IMG/VR virus record: IMGVR_UViG_3300042386_000720
Location: 1-64,000 of that record
Source: an uncultured virus (IMG/VR IMGVR_UViG_3300042386_000720)
Taxonomy: Duplodnaviria; Heunggongvirae; Uroviricota; Caudoviricetes
Reading direction: 5' to 3' (one strand)
DNA length: 64,000 bases
The translations under genes and the position numbers were made by a program. The notes below the pieces were generated by a model. That model saw nothing but the letters and a program-made list of their open reading frames with translations, made no database searches and had not been told where the DNA came from. Each line of letters opens with the position of its first letter. Position 1 is the stretch's first letter. Of this stretch, positions 38,234 to 61,737 are shown piece by piece.

Positions 38234-40075
38234 ATGAAAAATAATACAAACACAATTGACAGAATTAAATTAATGATGTCATATAATAATGAAAAAACAT
38301 TAAATGAAAATTTAAATGCTTTAAAGTTGGTAAGTGAAGATGAGTCAACTGAGGTTGAAGAACAAAGACAACAAATTGCAAATAGATTTAAAAATGCCGC
38401 TACGGGAGCCAAGGAAACTGCTATAATTTCCGCAATGGGTAAAGAATTTAAATTGTCTGATAATGTTATCGCAACAGCATTAACAAAAGACCTTACTCAA
38501 TTAACTAAAGAACTTGAAGATGCAATAAAGTTGGATTTGAAAAATGGAGTAAGAATATCAACAACAAATACATTGGGACCTGCAGCAAAGGAAGCCTCTA
38601 AATTAAAGGCAATGAAAGAAATGTCATTAAAAAGTAATGAATTAAAAGCATCAGGAAAAAATATAACAACTAAAGAAATTGATGATATAGTCTTAAGAGC
38701 ACAAACCGAATCTAAAGAGATGGCTAGAAAATTAGAAACGGGTGTTGTTAGTAAAGAAGGAAAAAAAGCGGCTAATCAAACAAAGAAAATTGCAGATTTA
38801 GAAGCGAAGATTAAACAATTAGAAACTGTTAAAACACCTCAACAAGCAGAAGCCGCAATTAAAAATGAGGTTAACATTACCATGACTCAGGGAGGTTCGG
38901 CAGGAACACAAGCAGGAGCCGCAGTAACACATGCTGAAGTACAAGCAATTAAAGAAATTGCGCCAGAAGCTAAAGTTGTTGCTCAAGAATCCAAAGCCAT
39001 TGTTGAAACAATGAAACCTTCTAAATGGCAAAAGTTTAAAGCAATTGCCGGTAGATTAAGTCCAAAATATTGGATTATGTTAGGTTTAGCTGGTGTAGGT
39101 GGTTGGTATCTTTGGAAATTTTTTAAAGGTGGAACAACAAAACCTGGAGATCAATTATTTGGTAAATGTCTAGATGATGTTATTGATGATACCGGAACAA
39201 CAATTAGAAATACAACGGGCGGAGATCCAGTAGTACAAGTTACAAAAACAGGTAATTCTGAATATGATGGAAAGGGTGGTTTATGGTTTTACAATAACGG
39301 TAGAGTATTCATGAAGGATCAATCAAAAAGAGGTAGATGGTCTTGTAAAGGTACACAAACAGTAATTGCAGAACAAGGAGATGGTAATCCAAATACAGGT
39401 ATTGGTAACATTAATATTACTTGGGATGGTGAAACCGCACCTGTTGATGGTGGCGGAGGTTCTGGAAGTGGAGGTTCTGGAAGTTCAAATCCAAACTATC
39501 AAGATTGTTCAACAAAAGATTTTCCGTTTGAATTTGGATGTATTTCACCAAAAATTGCAGAAATACAAAAATGTTTAGGTATCACACCACAAAAAGGTTA
39601 TTTTGGACCTAAGACTAAAAAAGGTTTAGAAGATTTACAATATAATTTATCTGGTGGTATTACAAAAGAAACATATGATAAGATTATTTCAGCTTGTAAT
39701 CCAGTAACAGGATCTACAACGGGTACAACCACGGGTTCTACAACAGGTTCTACCGCTTCAGTAACGGGTACAACTACAGGTTCTACAACTGGTAACACAA
39801 CAACAGCACCTATAACACCTCCAGCAGTACCTGCCGAACCTGTATACGATAGAAACAGATTACAAGAATTATTGGCTAGTAAAAATTTAGTTAAAAAACG
39901 TAATGGTGTTATTGTTAAATGGAAAGGTCCTGAATTAGAAGGTAACGACTATTACATCTTAGATAAATATTTGAAAGACCAAGGTTATATTCAAAAGAAA
40001 CAAAGAGAAACTGGAGATAGAGACGATGAAGATGTAACAATGAAATATAAGTGGAAATTACAAGGAGAAGAATAA
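38234..40075 (+). CDS. Coiled-coil/TM protein with PG-binding-like domain and Thr/Ser-rich linker
   Basis: IQKCLGI...GYFGPKT; TGSTTGTTTGST repeats. Confidence 0.75.
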   Translation: MKNNTNTIDRIKLMMSYNNEKTLNENLNALKLVSEDESTEVEEQRQQIANRFKNAATGAKETAIISAMGKEFKLSDNVIATALTKDLTQLTKELEDAIKLDLKNGVRISTTNTLGPAAKEASKLKAMKEMSLKSNELKASGKNITTKEIDDIVLRAQTESKEMARKLETGVVSKEGKKAANQTKKIADLEAKIKQLETVKTPQQAEAAIKNEVNITMTQGGSAGTQAGAAVTHAEVQAIKEIAPEAKVVAQESKAIVETMKPSKWQKFKAIAGRLSPKYWIMLGLAGVGGWYLWKFFKGGTTKPGDQLFGKCLDDVIDDTGTTIRNTTGGDPVVQVTKTGNSEYDGKGGLWFYNNGRVFMKDQSKRGRWSCKGTQTVIAEQGDGNPNTGIGNINITWDGETAPVDGGGGSGSGGSGSSNPNYQDCSTKDFPFEFGCISPKIAEIQKCLGITPQKGYFGPKTKKGLEDLQYNLSGGITKETYDKIISACNPVTGSTTGTTTGSTTGSTASVTGTTTGSTTGNTTTAPITPPAVPAEPVYDRNRLQELLASKNLVKKRNGVIVKWKGPELEGNDYYILDKYLKDQGYIQKKQRETGDRDDEDVTMKYKWKLQGEE

Positions 40076-40076
40076 T

Positions 40077-40721
40077 ATGAAAGATATTAAAAAAATAGTA
40101 AGTGAAACCCTCTCAAAGAAGCATTCTATAAACGAATCCTTTGAGAGGATTTTTCTAAATGAAAATGATGAGGATAAATTTGGTTTAACCATACAATATT
40201 TGGGTAAATTGATAGATGAGGGATATGACAATGAACAAATAGAAGGTGTGGTAAATGAACAATTTGATTGGTTAAAAAAACTATTCACACCAAACAAACA
40301 AAATCCACAAGATGCATCTACAAGAAGTGGTATTTTAGATAAAGTAGGTGGTGGGGCCATTTCACAATTTAAAGAATATGCAATAACAACATTATTAAAC
40401 CTAATAGGGTTTAAAGGTCCGTTAGTGAGTGCAATGGCAACTGCAATGAGTGAAATGACATTAAGTGATTTAATTGCTGTCTTTAGAGATAAACAAAGTT
40501 GTTCATATCATGGTAGTACTGTTGCTGATGCGTTATCAGAATCATTAGTGGTATATATTATTTCATCAAGTACTGAAGAAGATTCAATGGCTGCGAATTT
40601 CTTAAGAAATACGGTATTTGAATACATAAAATCAAGTCAATTTGGTGAAATGTTAGCAAATGCTGTTTGTAATGTTGCATATAAAACAAAATCATCAATT
40701 ATTTCAAACATTAATGAATAA
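40077..40721 (+). CDS. Hypothetical protein
   Basis: KKIVSETL...INES...VNEQ. Confidence 0.8.
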   Translation: MKDIKKIVSETLSKKHSINESFERIFLNENDEDKFGLTIQYLGKLIDEGYDNEQIEGVVNEQFDWLKKLFTPNKQNPQDASTRSGILDKVGGGAISQFKEYAITTLLNLIGFKGPLVSAMATAMSEMTLSDLIAVFRDKQSCSYHGSTVADALSESLVVYIISSSTEEDSMAANFLRNTVFEYIKSSQFGEMLANAVCNVAYKTKSSIISNINE

Positions 40722-40736
40722 TAAGATATTTATATG

Positions 40737-40830
40737 TAGAGTTTAATTGGTTTGGTCGCCATTAAACGATAATACTTATAAACGAAAAGGAGGTGTTTCA
40801 AATCTCGACAAAGGGTCTTCGGACCTTTTG
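40737..40830 (+). ncRNA. Candidate small RNA with perfect SD motif
   Basis: TATTTATA promoter at 40727, 5' hairpin, AAGGAGGTG, terminal cUUCGg hairpin plus U-tract. Confidence 0.4.
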
Positions 40831-40878
40831 CTCGTTAATAGAGACACCAAACAAAAAACCCATCCGAAGATGGGTTTA

Positions 40879-41275
40879 TGGTGGAGGTGACGGGACTCGA
40901 ACCCGTGTCTTTCCTGTTCAACAATAAATGACTACACGTTTATTCTATTAGTTCATAACAGACAAATAGAAGGTTAATTACAGGAAACCATCAATACTGT
41001 TCCTAACCGGATTTTCAAGAGCCGTCAGATTTGCTCCAACACTCTTCGGGTGGTGTTACACCTTGAAGGCTTCTGTTCCTAGGTTACATGCCAGTCGACC
41101 CGATTGTAGTTTCGCCTTAGGCTACTGCTACGTTAGAAGTTGCAAGTAAACCTGCAATTTCCATGTTGTTATAAACGTTGCCGTCTAGAATTTTCCACCA
41201 TAGATTTAAGTCATAGATGAAGTCTGACTACGTGCCACTTACCCCTGATACCTGAAATCAATGCCAAGCACCCCC
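40879..41275 (-). ncRNA. ssrA: tmRNA
   Basis: 5' GGGGGTG pairs with 3' CACCTCC-ACCA including G3:U70; T-arm GGGTTCGAGTCCC; tag ORF 41182-41117 GNVYNNMEIAGLLATSNVAVA*; promoter TACATTTG upstream, terminator 40854-40877. Confidence 0.93.
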
Positions 41276-41355
41276 GTAATAAATAGAATACAAATGTAGA
41301 TGAGAAAGGGTTAAAAAACAAATTTTAACCCTTAAATTTAATTATGTGTGATAAT

Positions 41356-41655
41356 TTACTTCTTAGCGGCTGGTTTTCTTCCTTTGCGAGAACCACCTTT
41401 AGTTGCGTTTACAACATCTTTAGATTGCTTAACAACTTTTTTAGCGGCTTCAGCAACATCCTTAGTTTCTTCAACTACTCTTTTTACTCTTTCCTTAACC
41501 ACTTTAGCAACTTCTTTAACTTCCGCCAATTTTTCTTCAACCGCATCTGGAATGTTATTACCATCTTTGTCTTCGATTTTACCTGATTTCATTAGGAAAA
41601 ATACTACCGCTCCAGCCACAACCAAAGCCAATAAAATTAAAAGTACTGTCATCAT
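41356..41655 (-). CDS. Small membrane-anchored protein
   Basis: N-terminal TM, DKDGNNIPD, basic tail. Confidence 0.8.
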   Translation of the reverse strand: MMTVLLILLALVVAGAVVFFLMKSGKIEDKDGNNIPDAVEEKLAEVKEVAKVVKERVKRVVEETKDVAEAAKKVVKQSKDVVNATKGGSRKGRKPAAKK

Positions 41656-41697
41656 AATTGTTTGTTTTATATATAAATATCCGTTATTGTGCTAAAA

Positions 41698-42381
41698 TCA
41701 ATTAACCCTTAAAGGGAAGTGTTTTTCGTATAATGCCTCAAAAAACAACTTATTTTTTTCCCATTGTTTATTTACCATACCAATGGATTTATGTGTTACC
41801 ATTATTTTAGTGGTAACCCCAACTTTAATCCCATCTAAATGGTTGTCAACACAAAACGGTAAATCATAGAAATGGAACCCTGTAAATTCTTCATTAAACT
41901 TATGTTTAATTCTATCTTTATGAACCATAATAAATAACCCATCAACAATAACCACTTCTTTTGGTTTGTCACCAAATGATTGTTTTGAGTAGTGATTTAC
42001 ATGTCTTTTACCTTGATGTTCATGACCAACAACACCATACATAGATTCTTTATCCTGCCACCACATTCCACTCATTAAATTATTAGTACCGGCCAATCCT
42101 ATTATGCCATATTCAGGATTCTCCTCAAATAATCTAATAACTTTTGGTGTGATATTAGGGGTTTCCAAAATAAGATCGTCATGCATAAACACCACAATAT
42201 CATTTTCGGAATCTTGTAATCCTAAATTATAAATTTTGGGTAATGAATCCACACCATCATTCTCATAAATTAATATTTGAGTTTTAGGGTGTGAAAACAT
42301 TTTCTCAACGTGTTTTAAATACGTATCATCTATTTTTCGTGTTGAAATGACAACACTAATTGGTCCATTATATTTCGACAT
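41698..42381 (-). CDS. Glycosyltransferase family 2-like
   Basis: YN.G...VFMHDD, IIGLAG, VDGLF, FHFYD. Confidence 0.85.
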   Translation of the reverse strand: MSKYNGPISVVISTRKIDDTYLKHVEKMFSHPKTQILIYENDGVDSLPKIYNLGLQDSENDIVVFMHDDLILETPNITPKVIRLFEENPEYGIIGLAGTNNLMSGMWWQDKESMYGVVGHEHQGKRHVNHYSKQSFGDKPKEVVIVDGLFIMVHKDRIKHKFNEEFTGFHFYDLPFCVDNHLDGIKVGVTTKIMVTHKSIGMVNKQWEKNKLFFEALYEKHFPLRVN

Positions 42382-43117
42382 GAGTTGCAATTATTTCACC
42401 ATAAACTTCTTGTAAGTCTATGATTATTGGTTTATTTATTGGTTCGTATTTTGAGTTACAAGTTGATGCATTTACGAATAATGTTTTATTACCGAGCTCA
42501 ACACCATAACCTTCGTGAATATGACCAAATACACTTACTAATGGATTTATTTCTTCTATTCTATTTCGTAACAACTCACAACCTACGTTTGTATTTGGTT
42601 GTCGCCAATTATTAACTAAATCTCCGTATCCATTTGGTGGTCCATGTGTTATTAATACATCAGTATCTTCTGAAATCATATTCCACTTTTCTTGTAACTC
42701 AACCCCAAATCTTGGTAAGTTAAAAGCCCAATCATAAAAATTTGGTTGCCAAGGACTTCCGTAGATTTTAATTGGTCTTGAAAATTCAGGTGACTCAATA
42801 GTCATAAAATTATCTTCCAAATAAGTCACATTGGATTGAGATAGATTTTCAGGAGTCATTAGATTGTTTAACCAATCGTAGTCGCCTTTATGGTGCGGTT
42901 GATTAACCCGCTCAAAACAGAAATCGTGATTACCCGAAATAAAAATTTTAGAGTCAAACCCTTCTATGTTTTGAAACCAATGAATAAATTCTGTCACATC
43001 TCTTTCTCCACCTCTATTTGATAAATCACCCGCATGTATTAACACATCACCTTGTGGTAATTCGTGGGTCATACCTCTATGTAAGGCATGTGTGTCGGAT
43101 ATACAAACTATTCTCAT
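42368..43117 (-). CDS. Metallophosphoesterase (calcineurin-like)
   Basis: ISDTH, HAGD, GNHD, THGPP, GHIHE. Confidence 0.92.
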   Translation of the reverse strand: MRIVCISDTHALHRGMTHELPQGDVLIHAGDLSNRGGERDVTEFIHWFQNIEGFDSKIFISGNHDFCFERVNQPHHKGDYDWLNNLMTPENLSQSNVTYLEDNFMTIESPEFSRPIKIYGSPWQPNFYDWAFNLPRFGVELQEKWNMISEDTDVLITHGPPNGYGDLVNNWRQPNTNVGCELLRNRIEEINPLVSVFGHIHEGYGVELGNKTLFVNASTCNSKYEPINKPIIIDLQEVYGEIIATHVEI

Positions 43118-43150
43118 AATATCAAATATAAGTAAAATTTATTTAAAAGC

Positions 43151-43177
43151 AAAAAAAAAGTCAGAATAAATCTGACT
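43151..43177 (-). terminator. Terminator of the large ncRNA
   Basis: agtcaga...tctgact hairpin plus A9 on +. Confidence 0.8.
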
Positions 43178-43184
43178 AATCTTT

Positions 43185-44055
43185 TTTGGGCCGAACGGTT
43201 TTAAAACGTTCCAATTCCACCACTTTGTTTTACTAAACAAAGAAAATAAAACACTGAGAATACATGTCTTAATAATTGACTTAGGGACATTATTTGTTTC
43301 TTCCCTTTTCCACTACCTTTTGAGTAGTACCAATCAGCGGCGGTCAATTAGATTAACCAATCCTTGAGTCGTTATATACTCTTTTAATACTCATTACTCA
43401 TCAAAGATGCCTCCCTGATTCAACCTTGCGGGTTTAGAGAACTTTTTTAAAAATCACATTGGGCTTGAGACCCTTTGTGGCCGTGAACCCCTCACGACTA
43501 TGTAGCCACCTGTCTACAACGACTGACGAACACTTCTTCTTGTATGATTTTAAGTTGTTAAACCAAAATTAACAAAATTTAGTTATCCGAATTTGGAAAG
43601 TAGTGGTTCGTCACCTAGCCAAGCCACCTTTTGAGCGACTCGATACTAAACTACTCTCTGTAACATCCCTGCTACCATATTTTTGGACCCCTTCAGAACT
43701 AAACCCTTGGTAGAGTTTAATAAAGGATGATAACGACACCACTCGTACTTCACCATACCTTTCGGTTTTAAGATTCCCATTATATTGAATCACGCAATTG
43801 TAAAGTCGGATAACGATACTTCTCACAATAACTCTATGGATTATTCTTATTGGTGTCCCCACCTCAACCAAACAACTCGGATTGCTTAGTCATCAAACCA
43901 CTTTCCCTAAAGTGTTACCCTCAGTACTTAAGGTTCAACGATACTCCACTTGCCTACTCAAGTTCCATTACTGAAACCGCAACTTACCCCAACCAAGGGT
44001 TTGTCACTTTATCCCACTTTCATGGTTTATTTTAATCGACCATAGGCGGCCAATA
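43185..44055 (-). ncRNA. Large structured ncRNA, GOLLD-like
   Basis: ~870 nt without a credible ORF, bounded by a promoter (~44111) and terminator; many helices, GNRA loops, two CUCAAAAGGU hairpins; next to tRNAs. Confidence 0.65.
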
Positions 44056-44170
44056 TTTTTAAATCAAAGAACTTTTTCTTACTACGAAACCACCTTTGTG
44101 ATTTCTTTTACAAATATACAATGAATATTTTAAAAAACAAAATAAATCATCAAATATTTTTTATTTTTTT

Positions 44171-44392
44171 TTATTCAGAAGTTTTTTTCTTCTTTAATTG
44201 TTTTTTAGAAGAAACTTTATCATCAGTTTTCTTAGTTTTATAGTCTGGATTTTTGTAAAGTTTATATTCGGTTTTTGGTGCAAATGACCAATAACCACCT
44301 TTAACTCTTAAATCCGCTTCGTTATCTTCTACTCTTAAAACTTGACCAATTTCATGACCTTTACTTGCTTTAATTAACTTAATACATTTCAT
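44171..44392 (-). CDS. Small basic hypothetical protein
   Basis: ORF with its own TATATTTG promoter (~44416). Confidence 0.7.
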   Translation of the reverse strand: MKCIKLIKASKGHEIGQVLRVEDNEADLRVKGGYWSFAPKTEYKLYKNPDYKTKKTDDKVSSKKQLKKKKTSE

Positions 44393-44456
44393 AATTTTAA
44401 TCTTTAATTGTTTTACAAATATACATAATAAATTTCAAAAAACAAAATTTAATTTG

Positions 44457-44607
44457 CTGTAGTGGATGGGTTCGAACCACCAAGTGGAGATTCAACTGAT
44501 AACATGACGCTTGCAAGCTGGTGGTCTACCCCCTAATATTATCAATCTATTTCTTTGTCCACACCCCCGAGACAGGAGGGTACGTTTGCCAATTTCGTCA
44601 CACTACA
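44457..44607 (-). ncRNA. tRNA-Asp(GUC)-like RNA with ~80-nt variable-arm insertion
   Basis: Acceptor TGTAGTG/CACTACA-G, class II-like D arm, anticodon loop CTGTCTC, T arm GGTGG-TTCGAAC-CCATC. Confidence 0.75.
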
Positions 44608-44799
44608 ATATAACACCCTTTTATCAGCCGAAGCCTCACATAACCTTAGTGTGGAACCACCGGTAGGTGTCATGAATGATTACCAATGAGAATGTAGATT
44701 TTCACTAACTCGATTTAGCGGTCTCTATGGTAATTTTTTGATGGATGAAAAACATCTATTTTTCTTGCGGACTTCCATCGGAGACCCATAACTTAAAAG

Positions 44800-44873
44800 T
44801 GGACCAGGTAGGAATCGAACCTACTACCTTCACATTATGAGTGTGCCGCTCTAACCGAGTGAGCTACAAGTCC
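44800..44873 (-). tRNA. tRNA-Ile2/Met (CAT)
   Basis: Cloverleaf, loop CTCATAA; body resembles Ile2. Confidence 0.85.
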
Positions 44874-44883
44874 AAAATTTACG

Positions 44884-44957
44884 TGATCCCGTTTGGATTC
44901 GAACCAAAGACCCACATCTTAGAAGGATGTTGCTCTATCCAACTGAGCTACGGAACC
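44884..44957 (-). tRNA. tRNA-Arg (TCT)
   Basis: Cloverleaf, loop CTTCTAA. Confidence 0.93.
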
Positions 44958-45074
44958 AAGTTAATGTAATGTCTGTACGGTTTGTTTCTAATCAGCACCT
45001 TTGTACGTGCATCAAAAGTTTCCATTTCATACGTAGCGTCCGTTCCGTCACTCATTTCTGAGTCATTACATTTG

Positions 45075-45159
45075 TACCTGAGGCGGGACTTGAACCCGCA
45101 CGAGCGTTTCTGCTCAACAGATTTTAAGTCTGTCATGTATACCATTTCATCACTCAGGC
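45075..45159 (-). tRNA. tRNA-Leu (TAA)
   Basis: Class II cloverleaf, loop CTTAAAA. Confidence 0.93.
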
Positions 45160-45280
45160 ATTTTGTTTTTCCAATACATCAAAGAACTATAACTCAAACA
45201 TAAACAAAAAATGTGATATAAAAAAACCCCGAACAATTTTTTTAGTTTGTTCAGGGAATTAACTTAACTAAAATTTTATT

Positions 45281-45730
45281 TTATTTTACTTTATACGATA
45301 ATCCAAGTCCTAATGTAAAATCACTACCGACTAAATTACCAATTGTCCATAAATTTATAACAGTACTTGGCCTAAGTGGATTGTACATTATAAGAAAATT
45401 TGGTTTATTACCATCAAGTGTTGGCTGTAATCCAAATCCAACAATCGCCTTGTCTTCTTTTAATTGTCTAAGAACACCAAACTTCATGTTATCGGACACA
45501 TTTCCTGTATTGGTGTTAACACCAGGGGGAATTGAAATTCCGCCATTTGGGGTTTTTATTTCACCGTATGGAAGTCCCGCATAAAACCCCCAACCTTTTT
45601 TCATAAAACCACCTGTTATATAACCGTCTGATGGACCGCCTTTTCGAGTGGCGGTTATAAACCACTCTTGTCCATTTGCTACGACTTCCACTCCCAAAAG
45701 TAACGTTAGCACTAAAAAAATTTTTTTCAT
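45281..45730 (-). CDS. Secreted outer-membrane beta-barrel-like protein
   Basis: Signal peptide MKKIF; alternating beta strands ending LGLGLSYKVK. Confidence 0.65.
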   Translation of the reverse strand: MKKIFLVLTLLLGVEVVANGQEWFITATRKGGPSDGYITGGFMKKGWGFYAGLPYGEIKTPNGGISIPPGVNTNTGNVSDNMKFGVLRQLKEDKAIVGFGLQPTLDGNKPNFLIMYNPLRPSTVINLWTIGNLVGSDFTLGLGLSYKVK

Positions 45731-46029
45731 TTTTTTGATTTGGACAAGGAATCTTCCGTTGCCCATTTCTCTTTTAATTTTGCAACCTTCTCAATCTTTA
45801 CAATTTTACCATTCAATTTGGTAATCTCGTCCGTGATTTCTTTGGTTTTGACGGCCCTGCTAGCGTAATTCTCATCTGTTACTTCAACCCATTCAATCTT
45901 TCTTTCAAGGGATTTAATCTCTTTTTTTATTTGATTGACTGACTTTCTTTCATCAGAAAGACTTGGGTCGATAGATGATGTTAATGTGTTAAAAAATAAC
46001 ATTAACGATAATGTGATTTTATCTATCAT
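45727..46029 (-). CDS. Secreted coiled-coil protein
   Basis: N-terminal hydrophobic segment, coiled coil. Confidence 0.7.
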   Translation of the reverse strand: MIDKITLSLMLFFNTLTSSIDPSLSDERKSVNQIKKEIKSLERKIEWVEVTDENYASRAVKTKEITDEITKLNGKIVKIEKVAKLKEKWATEDSLSKSKK

Positions 46030-46205
46030 ATATTATAAATATTAATAATATGACAAATATACAGAATAAAATGTTGGAAATCAATATCTTAATATAAAAA
46101 AAATATTATATATTAAAAATTAACATTGCTATCAGGGTTTAAATGGCTCACAGATAAATCTGGAATCACCACCTACTGGTTTTACAGTATCTTAGTTAAT
46201 TCTTG

Positions 46206-46290
46206 CAGAGAGTTAGGGATTCGAACCCCAGATACCTTTCAGTATGCCAGTTTTCAAGACTGGTGCCATCAACCACTCGGCCAACTCTCT
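46206..46290 (-). tRNA. tRNA-Ser (TGA)
   Basis: Class II cloverleaf, loop CTTGAAA. Confidence 0.93.
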
Positions 46291-46556
46291 AAAAATTGAT
46301 TCTAACTCACCTTAAGTTGCACCATCCGAGTCACTGCTCTGGTTGACAAAGTCCTCGTTGAGTTAGTTTCAAAAAGTTACAGGTTTTTCGTACCATCTAT
46401 GTACATCATAACAGACATAGTCTGCGGTTACATTTTCGTATTGGGGTAATTATTCCCGACTTATAGTAACTCTACCCTCACCGCCCTACCTCGCGAGTCA
46501 GACGGATCTTTTGGGATTCATAGACAGTGGGGTTACACCACCGTCGTCACCTGTTG

Positions 46557-46630
46557 AGCCCAAACTCAGATTCGAACTGAGGACCTACTGATTACAAATC
46601 AGTTGCTCTGGCCAGCTGAGCTATTCGGGC
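46557..46630 (-). tRNA. tRNA-Thr (TGT)
   Basis: Cloverleaf, loop TTTGTAA. Confidence 0.93.
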
Positions 46631-46780
46631 TACTATGGAAAACAGAAGATGGGGGTGTGGACATCTGTTTTTATGATTGGCGTTTCTCGCTATTCGCTAG
46701 CCCCGTTAAATCCCAATCAACCATTGTTTAACAAAGATAATAAATAATTTCAGATATTCCAAATTATTTTAAAATCTTTT

Positions 46781-46853
46781 TGGTTGCGGGGCCGGTAGTC
46801 GAAACCGGAAAAGACACAGCTTATGAGACTGGTCGGGTACCCTCCTCCCCGCA
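46781..46853 (-). tRNA. Atypical tRNA-Met (CAT) with reduced D arm
   Basis: TGCGGGG/CCCCGCA-A-CCA, loop CTCATAA, T arm CCGGT-TTCGACT-ACCGG. Confidence 0.7.
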
Positions 46854-46858
46854 ATATG

Positions 46859-46929
46859 TTGTCCCTCGTGGGCTCGAACCACAGCTAGATGGACCAAAAC
46901 CATCTGTACTACCACTATACTAAAGGACA
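46859..46929 (-). tRNA. tRNA-Gln (TTG)
   Basis: Cloverleaf, loop TTTTGGT. Confidence 0.9.
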
Positions 46930-46934
46930 ATATG

Positions 46935-47014
46935 TACCCAAGGTCGGACTCGAACCGACACGCCTTTCGACACGGTTTCTAAGACCGCTGTGTATACCAT
47001 TCCACCACTCGGGT
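46935..47014 (-). tRNA. tRNA-Leu (TAG)
   Basis: Class II cloverleaf, loop CTTAGAA. Confidence 0.93.
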
Positions 47015-47021
47015 ATTGTTG

Positions 47022-47093
47022 CACGCATGTAAGGACTCGAACCTTCATCTTCGGTTTTGGAGACCGAAATTCTACCAATTGAACTACACACGC
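47022..47093 (-). tRNA. tRNA-Trp (CCA)
   Basis: Cloverleaf, loop CTCCAAA. Confidence 0.93.
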
Positions 47094-47099
47094 ATTTTG

Positions 47100-47171
47100 C
47101 GCTGATTCAGAATTACGATATCTGGACCCCGAAGTTAACAGCTTCGTGCTCTACCTCTGAGCTAAATCAGC
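47100..47171 (-). tRNA. tRNA-Asn (GTT), non-canonical T loop
   Basis: Loop CTGTTAA; T loop ATCGTAA. Confidence 0.8.
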
Positions 47172-47176
47172 GTTTG

Positions 47177-47251
47177 TAGGGTAAAGAGGACTCGAACCTC
47201 CATGATGCCTTGCTCCCAAAGCAAGTGACTTAGCCATTAGTCCATTACCCT
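47177..47251 (-). tRNA. tRNA-Pro (TGG)
   Basis: Cloverleaf, loop TTTGGGA. Confidence 0.9.
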
Positions 47252-47260
47252 ATTTGTATA

Positions 47261-47298
47261 AAACAAAAAACCTCGAGATTTTTAAGTCCCGAGGTTTT
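47261..47298 (-). terminator. Terminator (attenuator) directly upstream of the tRNA operon
   Basis: Minus strand AAAACCUCGGGA-loop-UCUCGAGGUUUUUUGUUU. Confidence 0.85.
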
Positions 47299-47321
47299 CT
47301 AATATTTTAAGTTAAACTAAA

Positions 47322-47417
47322 TTAACCAACATCAGTATCATCGAGACATATGCGCATAGGTTGCTCATTCCAATTTAGTTGGTTTGATGTCGACGTTATG
47401 TTTGTTAATTGTCTCAT
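47322..47417 (-). CDS. Putative attenuator leader peptide (31 aa) MRQLTNITSTSNQLNWNEQPMRICLDDTDVG
   Basis: Short ORF between promoter TATCTTTG (47447-47454) and terminator; stop codon lies inside the predicted antiterminator. Confidence 0.7.
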   Translation of the reverse strand: MRQLTNITSTSNQLNWNEQPMRICLDDTDVG

Positions 47418-47603
47418 TGAATTTAGTTTTATCTTTTTTTCTTTTACAAAGATATTAATAAATACGTATATAATCAAGAAAAGTTAAAAACTTTTTTTTG
47501 TCAGATGTATAAAGTGTTGATATTTATAAGGGACAAATAAAAATTATCTCTCTCCTGACTCTTTTCATATGAAAATTGCCAGGAGTACTTTAAAAAATTT
47601 CAT

Positions 47604-48254
47604 ATGGAAAGAATTAGAACATTATCACTTAATTTAGGCAATATATTATTTTGGGTATTTTTAAGATTAGTAGTATTTTGGATAGTCTTTGCCCTTTGTT
47701 TTCAATTATTCTTTGTTTATTTAGAGTTTTCCGGCAAACATGAGTTGCAACGAAATATCGTTAATTGGATTTCGTGGAGAATTGATGGAACATTCAAAAA
47801 CTCTCCAGAAAACATTTGGTATAATGCTGAAGACCATATTTGGGTTGAGAGTGTAACCAATGAGGTTAAAATTGGTAAATTGGCTGGTAACAGAAATTTA
47901 GCATTCGGGGTTAAAAACATATTAGAAGAGTTTTTACAAGAAAAAGGCTACGATTTATCGGCATCATCTCCTTACAAATTAAAAGTACAAATTGTTTATT
48001 TAGATGTTCTTACAACAAAGAAGAACATATCTGTTTTCCATTCTAATCAGGAGGAAGTGGTTATTAGATTGAAGGGAACATTAACAAAAGACGGTAAAAA
48101 AGAAAAAGAATTTGTTGTTGAGGAATCATCATCTGAAGTTTCTATGTCGACGCTTATTGTCGATGAAGGGGGGTCGTTTAACCAAACATCTTTAAGTAAT
48201 GCACTTAAAAAGGCTAGTGAAAAATTAATAAATAAATTAATGGATAAAAAATAA
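47604..48254 (+). CDS. Membrane-anchored protein, CsgG/LptE-like alpha-beta fold
   Basis: N-terminal TM; V.N...GVKNILEE...C-terminal ALKKASEKLI helix. Confidence 0.6.
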   Translation: MERIRTLSLNLGNILFWVFLRLVVFWIVFALCFQLFFVYLEFSGKHELQRNIVNWISWRIDGTFKNSPENIWYNAEDHIWVESVTNEVKIGKLAGNRNLAFGVKNILEEFLQEKGYDLSASSPYKLKVQIVYLDVLTTKKNISVFHSNQEEVVIRLKGTLTKDGKKEKEFVVEESSSEVSMSTLIVDEGGSFNQTSLSNALKKASEKLINKLMDKK

Positions 48255-48269
48255 AAAAAAAATAATAAA

Positions 48270-49922
48270 ATGAAAAAACTACTCTCTCTTAGCTTTTTTT
48301 TATTGATCGCCTTTACATCATTCGGTCAATTAACAATTAGTCAATCAATAACACCAACTACTGGATTAAAAGTAGGAGACACACTAACGGTTAAATATAA
48401 CTTAACAAAAGGTACTGTAATTAAAAACCCTCGTTATCTTTGGTTTAGATATCAATTTAATAATAAGGCATTATCATATGTGTCAACCGCATTTAACCAA
48501 GGCACGTCTGCCCAAACATTTTACACTGGATGGAGTAACTATAAGTTTACACCAAACAGCACTACGAGTGATAATAATTTAGATCTTCAATATGGTTTAA
48601 CTCCTTGGGGTTATGCGGTAAATGCTGATTGGAATGTTGGACAATTAACCGTTCAAAGAGCTGATGCATCTATTAGTGGTTTAATTGCGACTCAAAAATA
48701 TGTTTTAAAAGACCAAAATACATATAACAATATTTTCAAAATAGATTTGGCAACGGGTACCGACACTGCCGGTGCAAATGTTGGGACTATCTTTGGTGGT
48801 GGTTGGTCATCTGTAAGTAATGTTGTTGGTAACACGTCACAATTCAAAGTAAAAGTATTATATCCACAAGGATATACTATTACCGACCATAATGTTCAAT
48901 TGATGAAATTGAAATCAAATGGTAGTGGTGAAATTGATTGGTCACAACAACCTATTGCACAATTACCATTGGATGCAAGTGGTGAAGCGTTATTCACAAC
49001 ACAAGTTAAAGTGGGTGATTCAGTTGGGGTATTCGTTGGACCCGCGTTTCAAAAAACTTGGATGAACAACATTGTAACCGTATCAGATGCCTATAAAGCA
49101 TTCTTAGGACACTCACAAACTGATATTAGTGGTACCGCGAACTTCTTTACTCTACCAGCATTGGAAAAGAAAGTTGGTAAGGTAACCAATAACCAAAACG
49201 CGTTTGGTGAAGGAGATTCATACGCATTATTTGCACATGTAATGGGACAAAATACTGACTCAAACGCAATGATTCCAACAAACACATCAACATCAGTAAG
49301 ATGGTATAGTGGTTTATTGAATCAAAGTTGGTTAGATGGTGTGGTTAAGAATAGAGTATTAATTGATTCACCTACAAAAGAGGTTTATGCTGTATTTGCG
49401 TGGGGTGGAGACTTAAACTGGTCACATTCATCCGACCCAGCGGTAATTGCAACTAAAATAACTGCAGGTCAATTTACAAATTCTGTAAATGATAAAGCAA
49501 CTAGTTCTATAAAATCTATGAGTACTGCCCCGATGGCTTATCAAACTTTAGCAGTGGAAAAGGCAACATTAGGTATTACATCAACATTAGAGGGTGGTAA
49601 GGTTGTATTAACCACTACATTAACAAAGACAGAATTAGCAGGTTTACAAGTAATAATGAATTATGATGAGTCTAAATTAACTTTGGATAATATCATATTT
49701 GATTCAGGTTCAACTATCACAAACTTTTCTACACATAAAGATGGTAGATTAACGTTTGGTTCTATTGACCAATTGAAAAGTGCGAGAATTAAAGTAGGTA
49801 CTCCATATAAATTAATATTCACACCAAAAACTACTTTAACAAATACTGCGGGTTTATTCTACTTTGTTTTATCGGATGCTGTTGACGCGAAAGGAAATAA
49901 AGTTGATTTAACCATTGAGTAA
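48270..49922 (+). CDS. Secreted cohesin/dockerin-like protein
   Basis: Signal peptide; IVTVSDAY...GDSY; C-terminal AGLQV.MNYD.SKL cohesin-like domain. Confidence 0.7.
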   Translation: MKKLLSLSFFLLIAFTSFGQLTISQSITPTTGLKVGDTLTVKYNLTKGTVIKNPRYLWFRYQFNNKALSYVSTAFNQGTSAQTFYTGWSNYKFTPNSTTSDNNLDLQYGLTPWGYAVNADWNVGQLTVQRADASISGLIATQKYVLKDQNTYNNIFKIDLATGTDTAGANVGTIFGGGWSSVSNVVGNTSQFKVKVLYPQGYTITDHNVQLMKLKSNGSGEIDWSQQPIAQLPLDASGEALFTTQVKVGDSVGVFVGPAFQKTWMNNIVTVSDAYKAFLGHSQTDISGTANFFTLPALEKKVGKVTNNQNAFGEGDSYALFAHVMGQNTDSNAMIPTNTSTSVRWYSGLLNQSWLDGVVKNRVLIDSPTKEVYAVFAWGGDLNWSHSSDPAVIATKITAGQFTNSVNDKATSSIKSMSTAPMAYQTLAVEKATLGITSTLEGGKVVLTTTLTKTELAGLQVIMNYDESKLTLDNIIFDSGSTITNFSTHKDGRLTFGSIDQLKSARIKVGTPYKLIFTPKTTLTNTAGLFYFVLSDAVDAKGNKVDLTIE

Positions 49923-60053: not shown

Positions 60054-60539
60054 TTAATTTTCCTTACTTCTATCCCATTTTGCTTTTCTGGCTTCTGGAG
60101 AAAGTATCATTGGCTCGTCTATTGTGTGTTCAATTTTAACCCTAATACAGGTTTGGGGTAAACCACAGTTCATTAAATAATTATTAATATATCCCATCAT
60201 ATTAGCACTACCGATTGGATTTGCGGAATGAACATAAATTTGGGGAAGGGGTATCTTTTTGGACATACTTTCAGCCACTAAAAATTTACAACAATCATAT
60301 CCTGTTTTTTCATTAACTATGTTGTCATAATTTAAAACATAATTATTTTTTACATTTGTATAGTACTCAATCATAGACTCATCACCTAAATCATGGTCTA
60401 ACGAAATAACATCAAAATTTTCTAACCCATATAATCTAATGGTAGAAACAAAATGTTCATAATTTCTTATAATAACCCAATCAGTTCCAATTGGTGTTCT
60501 AACGTCGTCTAAGTATAATCTTTTTTTCTCAGTTTTCAT
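60054..60539 (-). CDS. Cyclic-phosphate-processing receiver-domain protein
   Basis: LYLDDVR, ISLDHDLG, TGYD, VHSANPIG. Confidence 0.85.
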   Translation of the reverse strand: MKTEKKRLYLDDVRTPIGTDWVIIRNYEHFVSTIRLYGLENFDVISLDHDLGDESMIEYYTNVKNNYVLNYDNIVNEKTGYDCCKFLVAESMSKKIPLPQIYVHSANPIGSANMMGYINNYLMNCGLPQTCIRVKIEHTIDEPMILSPEARKAKWDRSKEN

Positions 60540-61737
60540 CTTTCTTAAATGGTTTTGAATATTCTGGTTTAACTATTTTCCAAATTATGTCATCGACTTT
60601 TTCATTATTTCCATTCCACATTGCGAACATAATCGCATGTAAAACTTTTTGTTGTTTCATAACAAATTCGGCAAATTCTTTTTTAGATGGCTCAGGGCCC
60701 CTGTCATTAAATTTTCCATATCTAAAACCATCATGTAATTTACCTGCACGTTCTCTTAGTTGAAAACAAGCATATCTTAAATCTCGAACAGTTTCTTTAA
60801 CCCATTGATTAAATTCGTCCGGAACTTTTTCAAGTAGTTCATCAAATGGTTTATTATCTTTCAAATATTCCCATATATCTCTATTTGATACGTTGGTTAA
60901 AATTTTGTGAAGTCTAACATATTCTTCTCCTTTAATTTTCATACGGAAACCATTATTGAAACGAATGACATAACCTTCCTTGTCTTTAGATATTTCTTCT
61001 TTCAATAAGTCATATCCTTCGCCCCAAGTTTTGTACGTTGTTACAACTTCAAAACCTTGTTCTTGCATAAAAAATATTGAACTATTGGGTAACTCCTCAC
61101 CACTATCGGTATCTATAACACCAAGAAGAACTAACTTTTCTTCATTACCATAATTAACAACGATACGATTTTCGGGATAAATAATCTCAAACAAATAGGT
61201 TCTTTTTTTACTTAAAGAACTTACATCATATTTGTTATCAAGAATTTCTTTTCCCTTAATTGCTTGTGGTGATGTGAATGACCCACGAGTTGCCATTATC
61301 CATTCACCCTTAGTCTTTGGTGTTGGTTCATAATATGAATTATCATAATCAGGTAAGTTGTTCGGGTCAAAAAACCTTTCCATGCCCGTTTCGTAATTAT
61401 TATTAAACCATATGTTGTATCTCCTTTCATCACTCAATTCGTATTCGTAATAAAAGAGAATACCTAAAGAACCATCCATTTTTTCATAGACAACATAATC
61501 TTCATTTGGGATGTCTTCTGATTTATGTTCTTCGTAGTTGAAGAATTTCTTAAACGGTCTTGCAACAATTTTTCCTTTTGAGTTGGTTACCAATCCACGA
61601 CATTGCAAAGTAATCTCATCCCATAATCTTTCATACTGAACTTTTGGTGAATAATTCCAAATAGTTAAATCAAGAGTTGGGTGAGTTTGTTTATGTAACA
61701 AACCATCAGTATGGTATTTCTGTAAAATTTCCAACAT
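60529..61737 (-). CDS. RNA ligase, T4 Rnl1-like
   Basis: CRGLV, ARPFKKFFN, EKMDGSL, TRGSF, FEII, EGYV, KIK..EY. Confidence 0.92.
   Translation of the reverse strand: MLEILQKYHTDGLLHKQTHPTLDLTIWNYSPKVQYERLWDEITLQCRGLVTNSKGKIVARPFKKFFNYEEHKSEDIPNEDYVVYEKMDGSLGILFYYEYELSDERRYNIWFNNNYETGMERFFDPNNLPDYDNSYYEPTPKTKGEWIMATRGSFTSPQAIKGKEILDNKYDVSSLSKKRTYLFEIIYPENRIVVNYGNEEKLVLLGVIDTDSGEELPNSSIFFMQEQGFEVVTTYKTWGEGYDLLKEEISKDKEGYVIRFNNGFRMKIKGEEYVRLHKILTNVSNRDIWEYLKDNKPFDELLEKVPDEFNQWVKETVRDLRYACFQLRERAGKLHDGFRYGKFNDRGPEPSKKEFAEFVMKQQKVLHAIMFAMWNGNNEKVDDIIWKIVKPEYSKPFKKDEN

What the first reader, a model, noticed from the sequence alone, without database searches (positions are those of the whole stretch)
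47177..47466. Leader-peptide attenuator that could switch on phage tRNA genes when those tRNAs are depleted
Seen (minus strand): promoter TATCTTTG (47447-47454), a 31-codon ORF (47417-47322), an intrinsic terminator (47298-47261), then tRNA-Pro, with no other promoter visible in between. An alternative three-helix hairpin sequesters the terminator 5' arm: GUCUCGA(47347-41)/UCGGGAC(47292-86), CUGAUGUU(47335-28)/AAUAUUAG(47306-299) and GGUUAA(47327-22)/UUAACU(47315-10). This hairpin contains the leader stop codon. Codons 2-17 (AGA CAA TTA ACA AAC ATA ACG TCG ACA TCA AAC CAA CTA AAT TGG AAT) are all decoded by tRNAs in this island: Arg-TCT, Gln-TTG, Leu-TAA, Thr-TGT, Asn-GTT, Ile2-CAT, Ser-TGA, Leu-TAG and Trp-CCA. 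Common codons such as AAA, GAA, ATT and TTT are absent there. Established: this is trp/his-type attenuator geometry, and phage tRNAs can counter host anticodon nucleases. Inference: a multi-codon sensor, in which ribosome stalling after tRNA cleavage or depletion causes read-through into the replacement tRNAs. I know of no described example. Caveat: Leu-TAA, Arg and Ile2 lie in a separately promoted block, and Thr and Ser have an extra internal promoter.
Basis: partly seen in the sequence, partly recalled or inferred. Interest (0 to 1): 0.93.

Follow-up and report, generated by a model that had tools for sequence, protein, structure and literature searches.

The report
Codon-matched attenuator gating phage tRNAs
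A tiny translated test gene, spelled in the codons that the tRNAs behind it read and wired to a switchable transcription stop, probably lets this lake phage make those tRNAs only when ribosomes run short of them; the same layout sits unannotated in two cultured phages, where it can be tested.

Summary
Confirmed, as a conserved ribosome-dependent attenuator. All parts lie at the stated coordinates. In 106 distinct homologues the frame is open, and the 7-bp antiterminator pairs fully in 92 (shuffled 65), with A-U/G-C swaps. Across 65 leader-array combinations, 420 of 423 first-block tRNAs have a cognate codon in the ribosome-sensitive part of the leader (shuffled 298; within subtype 398; tail codons at chance). 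A paralogous second leader in relatives uses the complementary isoacceptors (CUN, AGY, AUA, AGR). That points to tRNA supply as the signal, not amino acids. Corrections: only one helix competes with the terminator; the sensor runs to codon ~21; AGA/UUA/AUA match a separately promoted block and are probably not its signal. The terminator wins at equilibrium, so read-through must be kinetic; no expression data exist. Induction by anticodon nucleases is inference. Non-homologous leaders of the same design precede the tRNA arrays of cultured Cellulophaga phage phi10:1 and Tenacibaculum phage Gundel_1. Ten literature searches found no published account. This scan noted the same system earlier on other DNA.

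The parts
47447..47454 (-). Promoter -7 element TATCTTTG (Bacteroidota consensus TAnnTTTG, recalled)
   Evidence: a TAnnTTTG lies 16-33 nt before the leader start in 90 of 108 homologues
47322..47417 (-). 31-codon leader ORF
   Evidence: Open in 106 of 106 full-length homologues (27-36 codons); both other frames carry stops in 106 of 106; shuffles stay open 16% of the time
47410..47416 (-). Region 1 (UGAGACA), candidate protector that pairs with region 2 when the start is ribosome-free
   Evidence: In the MFE fold; core pairing possible in 77 of 106 homologues
47355..47414 (-). Sensor codons 2-21: a ribosome stalled here leaves region 2 free
   Evidence: Folding with a footprint; codon-tRNA matching
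47341..47347 (-). Region 2 (GUCUCGA), antiterminator 5' strand
   Evidence: Starts at ORF nt 71-74 in 101 of 106, in two reading frames (81 and 25); covaries with region 3
47299..47335 (-). Inner hairpin holding the stop codon; brings regions 2 and 3 together; compatible with both states
   Evidence: -8.9 kcal/mol; median z -2.0 over 75 distinct homologous segments, 39 below -2
47286..47292 (-). Region 3 (UCGGGAC), shared by antiterminator and terminator
47261..47298 (-). Intrinsic terminator (regions 3:4 and U-tract)
   Evidence: first tRNA starts within 20 nt of the U-tract start in 90 of 104 homologues with a called tRNA
47176..47251 (-). tRNA-Pro(TGG), first gene of block 1
47099..47171 (-). 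tRNA-Asn(GTT)
47021..47093 (-). tRNA-Trp(CCA)
46934..47014 (-). tRNA-Leu(TAG)
46858..46929 (-). tRNA-Gln(TTG)
46781..46853 (-). Divergent tRNA with CAT anticodon, last gene of block 1
   Evidence: Called only at a relaxed ARAGORN score and by likeness to homologues; coordinates
46732..46739 (-). Internal promoter element before the Thr/Ser sub-block
46556..46630 (-). tRNA-Thr(TGT)
46205..46290 (-). tRNA-Ser(TGA)
45220..45256 (-). Remnant terminator of the second attenuator; its leader is replaced here by the 3' end of a 161-aa gene
   Evidence: 25 distinct relatives have a leader and antiterminator strand at this place
44799..45202 (-). Separately promoted block: promoter element 45202-45195, tRNA-Leu(TAA), tRNA-Arg(TCT), tRNA-CAT (probably Ile2)
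   Evidence: AUA in 25 of 25 second leaders supports Ile2

Best explanation
A ribosome-dependent transcription attenuator that acts as a feedback sensor of tRNA supply. RNA polymerase starts at the 47447 promoter and a ribosome follows on the leader. If codons 2-21 are read fast, the ribosome covers region 2, regions 3:4 fold and transcription stops before tRNA-Pro. If a tRNA needed there is scarce, cut or uncharged, the ribosome lags, region 2 pairs with region 3 before region 4 is made, and polymerase reads into Pro-Asn-Trp-Leu(TAG)-Gln. The new tRNAs speed the leader and shut the switch again. With no ribosome, region 1 can take region 2 and termination is favoured. Shown: parts, conservation, covariation, codon-tRNA matching, folding order. 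Inferred: translation, kinetics, the physiological trigger, the Bacteroidota host.
For: Open frame in 106 of 106, stops in both other frames. Region 2:3 fully paired in 92 of 106 against 64.8 (max 78) in 10,000 shuffles; last pair A-U 65, G-C 29, G-U 6, A-C 6; on 15 chosen rows 97% of cells paired, 0 of 500 shuffles, slid controls 4-54%. Region 2 keeps its distance from the start while changing frame. Before region 4 exists the antiterminator has probability 0.85-0.99 for A-site codons 2-21 except codon 9 (0.19-0.64), and exceeds 0.5 in 102-104 of 106 homologues. 420 of 423 block-1 tRNAs have a cognate sensor codon; shuffles 297.6 (max 354), within subtype 398.3 (max 409), random codons 192; tail codons 105 against 100.5. 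Fixed windows agree: 290 of 290 at 300 nt, 401 of 408 at 1 kb. Isoacceptor split between leader 1 (n=36) and leader 2 (n=25): CGH 36 vs 1, AGR after codon 2 0 vs 25, AUY 36 vs 5, AUA 4 vs 25, AGY 1 vs 25, CUN 0 vs 25. In the window's subtype CUN is in 11 of 11 leaders with Leu-TAG in block 1 and 2 of 11 without. Same design in 3 of 3 other phage records opened.
Against: No expression evidence. At equilibrium the terminator wins (0.99) at every ribosome position, so the switch needs kinetic trapping, which I did not model. Loss of the antiterminator past codon 21 follows from the assumed footprint. With the ribosome on the stop codon the model lets region 2:3 re-form (0.26-0.73). One regulatory codon among many gives low sensitivity in theory (PMC1183508 passages). 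Codons often outlast their tRNA (Ala 9, Lys 9, Ile 11, Phe 17, Trp 3 of 65). Homologues are related: tree-independent pairs are 1-5 per anticodon, none significant alone; pooled 21.8 same, 0.5 opposite, 27.7 ties, and not independent between anticodons; region 2/3 change 4.5 of 5 pairs, median p 0.06. For the second attenuator a promoter-like motif lies behind the terminator in 31 of 32, so there it could only boost.
Confidence: 0.8

Rival explanations
1. Same attenuator, but the signal that matters is amino-acid starvation (uncharged tRNA), as in trp, his and thr leaders.
For: The mechanics cannot tell an absent tRNA from an uncharged one; the window's leader scores weakly on Rfam His_leader (25.2 bits, E 0.89).
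Against: Matching is by isoacceptor, not amino acid; no run of one amino acid; more tRNA does not cure lack of an amino acid (inference).
Confidence: 0.08
2. A general sensor of slow translation or a timer of infection; the codon match is inherited or only serves as shut-off.
For: Any stall at codons 2-21 gives read-through in the fold model; single codons are weak sensors; unmatched codons persist.
Against: Codons were re-tuned after arrays were rearranged, within subtypes too (100 of 101 vs 89; 288 of 288 vs 280.6); tail codons do not track.
Confidence: 0.07
3. Not ribosome-controlled: a leaky terminator, a protein- or tRNA-binding (T-box-like) antiterminator, or a peptide acting in trans.
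For: Terminator dominates at equilibrium; base -3 is U, not the A usual for Bacteroidota starts (recalled).
Against: No T-box or riboswitch family in Rfam; peptide tail changes frame and sequence while RNA strands stay; codon match confined to the footprint-defined part.
Confidence: 0.04
4. Chance ORF and hairpins in AT-rich DNA.
For: 5 of 14,073 real coding windows reach 16 of 16.
Against: Conservation, covariation and tracking.
Confidence: 0.01

Closest known systems
Leader-peptide attenuators of amino-acid operons (E. coli trpL, hisL, pheL; multivalent thrL and ilvGMEDA leaders; pheM before pheST, recalled)
   Same: Short ORF with regulatory codons, regions I-IV, mutually exclusive II:III and III:IV hairpins, I:II protector (scheme read in PMC1183508 passages)
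   Different: Controls tRNA genes, not enzymes; about one or two codons for each of 5-12 isoacceptors instead of runs for 1-3 amino acids; the output is the sensed molecule itself; phage-borne; Rfam His_leader 25.2 bits against cut-off 49
Anabaena 26-tRNA trn operon under TrcR (PMC8421152, PMC10272220)
   Same: A silent tRNA array switched on by translational stress (abstract of PMC10272220)
   Different: A protein repressor at initiation; 'attenuat' and 'leader' occur 0 times in the main text of PMC8421152; no codon matching
Phage tRNAs against tRNA-cleaving defences: T5-like tRNA-Tyr versus retron-Eco7 and tRNA-Lys versus PrrC (PMC11555353), PARIS (PMC11464382), anticodon-loop evasion (PMC10264068)
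   Same: A plausible reason to supply tRNAs on demand
   Different: There a strong promoter overexpresses the tRNA (passages); no sensor is described in what I read; the other two seen only as listing and start of abstract
T-box riboswitches (recalled)
   Same: Terminator/antiterminator switch that reports tRNA state
   Different: They bind uncharged tRNA directly with no ORF; no Rfam T-box match here

Membership tests
Ribosome-dependent leader-peptide attenuator | Short conserved ORF between promoter and terminator | tested here: met
   106 of 106 open, 27-36 codons
Ribosome-dependent leader-peptide attenuator | Mutually exclusive 2:3 antiterminator and 3:4 intrinsic terminator | tested here: met
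   Shared region 3; 92 of 106 fully paired with compensatory change
Ribosome-dependent leader-peptide attenuator | Regulatory codons placed where a stalled ribosome leaves region 2 free, cognate to the operon's product | tested here: met
   420 of 423; tail at chance
Ribosome-dependent leader-peptide attenuator | 1:2 protector or pause hairpin | tested here: inconclusive
   Pairing possible in 77 of 106, long-range, no pause evidence
Ribosome-dependent leader-peptide attenuator | Read-through depends on leader translation | not testable with these tools
   Only RNA contigs, no raw reads
Amino-acid operon leaders (trp/his/phe/thr/leu/ilv) | Run of codons for one to three amino acids, upstream of biosynthesis or synthetase genes | tested here: not met
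   Mixed single codons; downstream genes are tRNAs
Amino-acid operon leaders (trp/his/phe/thr/leu/ilv) | Rfam gathering score | tested here: not met
   His_leader 25.2 against 49 bits
T-box riboswitch | Stem I with specifier loop and T-box bulge | tested here: not met
   No T-box match to E 1 in 40000-48500

The most novel reading that the evidence does not exclude
An RNA-only sensor of anti-phage immunity: the leader audits one codon per tRNA isoacceptor, so that cleavage of any of them by a host anticodon nuclease (or bulk tRNA decay in infection) switches on the block that holds the replacement, and the leader is rewritten whenever the array is rearranged; used by unrelated Bacteroidota phages from 54 kb to 635 kb.
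Probability: 0.4. Interest if true: 0.92.

Novelty: new variant of a known kind. Interest (0 to 1): 0.8.

Why it matters
Why phages carry tRNAs is a long-open question, with codon compensation, host tRNA decay and anticodon-nuclease evasion as rivals. A regulator that reads tRNA supply says the genes are used on demand, and turns the question into a reporter assay: which insult opens the switch. It also extends attenuation to a new output (tRNA genes, self-feedback) and a many-input logic. The two cultured phages make it testable now.

Tried and rejected
No whole genome is held. The leader was too short for a protein-to-locus search, so a neighbouring gene and DNA patterns were used. RNA runs: 13 listed, all with small shares; 4 laid, all contigs; one 231-nt contig at depth 2.4 spans leader to tRNA-Pro with 6 differences, but contigs show no strand, ends or level and may be DNA, so it counts for nothing. 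The exact terminator pattern gave 4 hits in GTDB genomes, none read as a leader before tRNAs; this narrow search does not exclude host versions. No INPHARED record holds the leader itself; 43 records matched, the 20 listed nearly all in the tRNA part. Equilibrium folding shows no switch. Per-anticodon tree tests lack power. Rejected: a three-helix competitor, sensing of Leu-TAA/Arg-TCT/Ile2 as the main role, T-box, chance.

Full report
Setting. The window is 32% G+C, encodes an endolysin, HNH and homing endonucleases, an RNA ligase and a glycosyltransferase among 41 ORFs scanned against PHROGs, and holds ten ARAGORN tRNAs, a tmRNA and a GOLLD RNA. Relatives of the gene next to the finding lie on IMG/VR contigs up to 336 kb. 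Many genes follow TAnnTTTG, which I recall as the Bacteroidota promoter element. So: a large phage, host probably Bacteroidota (inference). No whole genome is held.

Observation. Promoter element, 31-codon ORF, terminator and tRNA-Pro are at the stated places, and no second TAnnTTTG lies between. Codons 2-17 are 16 of 16 in the array's set against 0.321 expected (P=1.3e-8); codons 2-20 give 18 of 19 under whole-box wobble (P=1.7e-6), 10 of 19 for block 1 alone (P=5e-4); codons 22-31 give 3 of 10; 5 of 14,073 real coding windows also reach 16 of 16. Whole-box reading by U34 tRNAs is an assumption.

Homologue set. Searches gave 294 loci. A nucleotide profile found 258 hits in 236 sequences, 126 distinct after 5 hits without a terminator were dropped. 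I kept 108: those with E below 1e-15 and two weaker ones followed by tRNAs; the 18 dropped were unrelated terminators, second-attenuator hits and reverse-strand echoes. Two were cut by contig ends, leaving 106. Three were corrected by hand (terminator of L151, start of L113, region 2 of L183). Searches selected on the terminator only; on leader letters. Near-identical sequences remain, so rows are not independent.

The ORF. All 106 have an open frame of 27-36 codons; both other frames have a stop in all 106; dinucleotide shuffles stay open 16% of the time. Region 2 begins at nt 71-74 in 101 of 106 but in two frames (81 and 25), so the tail is constrained as RNA and the front as codons.

The switch. 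Region 2 pairs fully with region 3 in 92 of 106 (shuffled partners 64.8, max 78); the last pair is A-U 65, G-C 29, G-U 6, A-C 6. On 15 chosen rows 97% of cells pair, 3 pairs change on both sides, 0 of 500 shuffles match the covariation score, slid controls pair 4-54%. On a tree of the 5' part only 5 supported independent pairs exist; 4.5 go the same way (median p 0.06). Folding the transcript as it stands when region 3 has emerged, with a footprint of -12 to +13 around the P site, gives antiterminator probability 0.85-0.99 for A-site codons 2-21 (0.19-0.64 at codon 9, where region 1 competes), 0.14 or less for 22-31 (by construction) and 0.26-0.73 on the stop; once region 4 is present the terminator has 0.99 everywhere. 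The switch must therefore be kinetic: region 3 is taken before region 4 exists. Region 1 (start codon plus AGA CA) can pair with region 2 in 77 of 106, which matches the I:II helix of the classical scheme (PMC1183508 passages) and explains AGA CAA in leaders whose block lacks Arg-TCT and Gln.

Codons follow the tRNAs. 71 of 106 had a first block whose end was seen (first internal promoter or first CAT tRNA; rule set after viewing the data), 65 distinct. Leaving CAT tRNAs out, 420 of 423 block tRNAs have a cognate sensor codon; shuffles give 297.6 (max 354), within subtype 398.3 (max 409); tail codons 105 against 100.5. Fixed windows give 290 of 290 (300 nt), 334 of 337, 401 of 408, 432 of 439, 484 of 503 (2.5 kb), each above all 2,000 within-subtype shuffles. 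Arrays opening Ala-Ile-Phe-Lys have leaders such as MRQFTHTMSFTICSKWADER; those opening Pro-Asn-Trp-Leu-Gln, like the window, have NQLNWNEQP. In the window's subtype CUN is present in 11 of 11 with Leu-TAG in block 1 and 2 of 11 without (both have it further down); CGU in 4 of 5 with Arg-ACG and 0 of 17 without. Against: codons often outlast a deleted tRNA (Ala 9, Lys 9, Ile 11, Phe 17, Trp 3), three tRNAs lack a codon, and tree-independent pairs are too few per anticodon (pooled 21.8 same, 0.5 opposite, 27.7 ties).

A second leader as control. Before tRNA-Leu(TAA), 25 of 39 distinct upstream regions carry a paralogous leader (MKNINNILTSTRPLNNGNGYGVQPL type) with its own antiterminator strand. 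It matches 164 of 164 tRNAs of its own block, 295 of 300 canonical block-2 and 34 of 200 block-1 classes; leader 1 of the Ala subtype gives 287 of 288 and 106 of 432. The split is by isoacceptor: CGH, AUY, UCN in leader 1; AGR, AUA, AGY, CUN, UUR in leader 2. This favours tRNA supply over amino-acid supply as the signal, and Ile2 for the CAT tRNA of block 2. In the window this leader is gone: a 161-aa gene ends at the remnant terminator. A promoter-like motif follows terminator 2 in 31 of 32 (relaxed motif), so block 2 has its own start; attenuator 1 leaves 20 nt or less before the first tRNA in 90 of 104.

Other phages. I opened three records, picked as best tRNA matches, and all three show an unannotated leader of the same design but unrelated sequence. 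Cellulophaga phage phi10:1 (KC821618, 31467-31532): MLKKWSYSCFSYSFKNGEVIL before Tyr, Trp, Phe, Ser-TGA, Cys. Tenacibaculum phage Gundel_1 (MT732474, 72937-72999): MKTKLYSYSCFSSWFKNRAG before a Tyr-like gene (anticodon read by eye), Trp, Phe, Ser-TGA, a Cys-like gene, Ser-GCT; 10 of codons 2-15 cognate against 0.18 (P=1.9e-5, window chosen after looking). LR745206 (635 kb): a Pro/Gln/Asp-rich leader before Pro, four Asp, Pro, three Gln. In each the antiterminator forms (0.9 or more at most positions) while the ribosome is on the matched codons.

What is known. It works like trp/his/thr leaders and meets the testable features of a ribosome-dependent attenuator, but is not a member of the amino-acid leader families (no codon runs, tRNA output, Rfam His_leader 25.2 against 49 bits). 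The Anabaena tRNA array is induced by translational stress through the repressor TrcR (PMC10272220 abstract; PMC8421152 term search). Phage tRNAs counter tRNA-cleaving defences by strong promoters (PMC11555353 passages). Theory says a small share of regulatory codons lowers sensitivity, so the leader should answer best to severe loss of one tRNA or a joint fall of many (inference). PMC4833913 passages add nothing on tRNA genes. Ten searches of open PMC and bioRxiv text showed no account of attenuators before tRNA genes; I read listings and the passages named, no supplements, and subscription papers are not covered. Earlier notes of this scan describe the same system in other genomes; I tested it afresh here and count them as no support.

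Verdict. Real, conserved, most likely a tRNA-supply attenuator (0.8); the anti-defence trigger is open (0.4). New variant of a known kind; interest 0.8.

Noticed in passing
L297:1247-1312 (KC821618.1 31467-31532) and L295:3651-3713 (MT732474.1 72937-72999): Unannotated codon-matched leader, antiterminator and terminator before the tRNA arrays of two cultured phages, Cellulophaga phi10:1 and Tenacibaculum Gundel_1.
   Followed up: yes
L296:7169-7330 (LR745206.1): Same design in a 635-kb uncultured phage, with repeated Pro, Gln, Asp codons before repeated Pro, Asp, Gln tRNAs.
   Followed up: partly
window 44454-44609 (-): tRNA-shaped fold with a GTC anticodon and a very long insert at the variable arm; missed by ARAGORN and Rfam.
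   Followed up: partly
window 46781-46853 (-): Divergent CAT-anticodon tRNA ending in CCA, without the three G-C pairs of an initiator (recalled feature); identity unclear.
   Followed up: partly
window 46645-46725, 46295-46555, 44700-44790, 43660-44060 (-): G+C-richer non-coding stretches between tRNAs, two of them seen again in relatives (L014, L018), with no Rfam family at gathering score; candidate structured RNAs.
   Followed up: no
window 45179-45188 and 44064-44073 (-): AGTTCTTTGA just behind promoter elements of RNA-gene blocks, conserved before tRNA-Leu(TAA) in relatives; resembles the boxA antitermination element (recalled).
   Followed up: partly
window 43251-43658 and 40879-41275 (-): GOLLD RNA (303.7 bits) and a tmRNA with tag ATSNVAVA.
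   Followed up: no
L235, L227, L189, L255: Arrays that lost the Ala-Ile-Phe-Lys tRNAs but keep most of the old leader codons: recent deletions with a lagging leader.
   Followed up: partly
window 60532-61737 (-): RNA ligase family gene, of possible bearing on tRNA repair.
   Followed up: no
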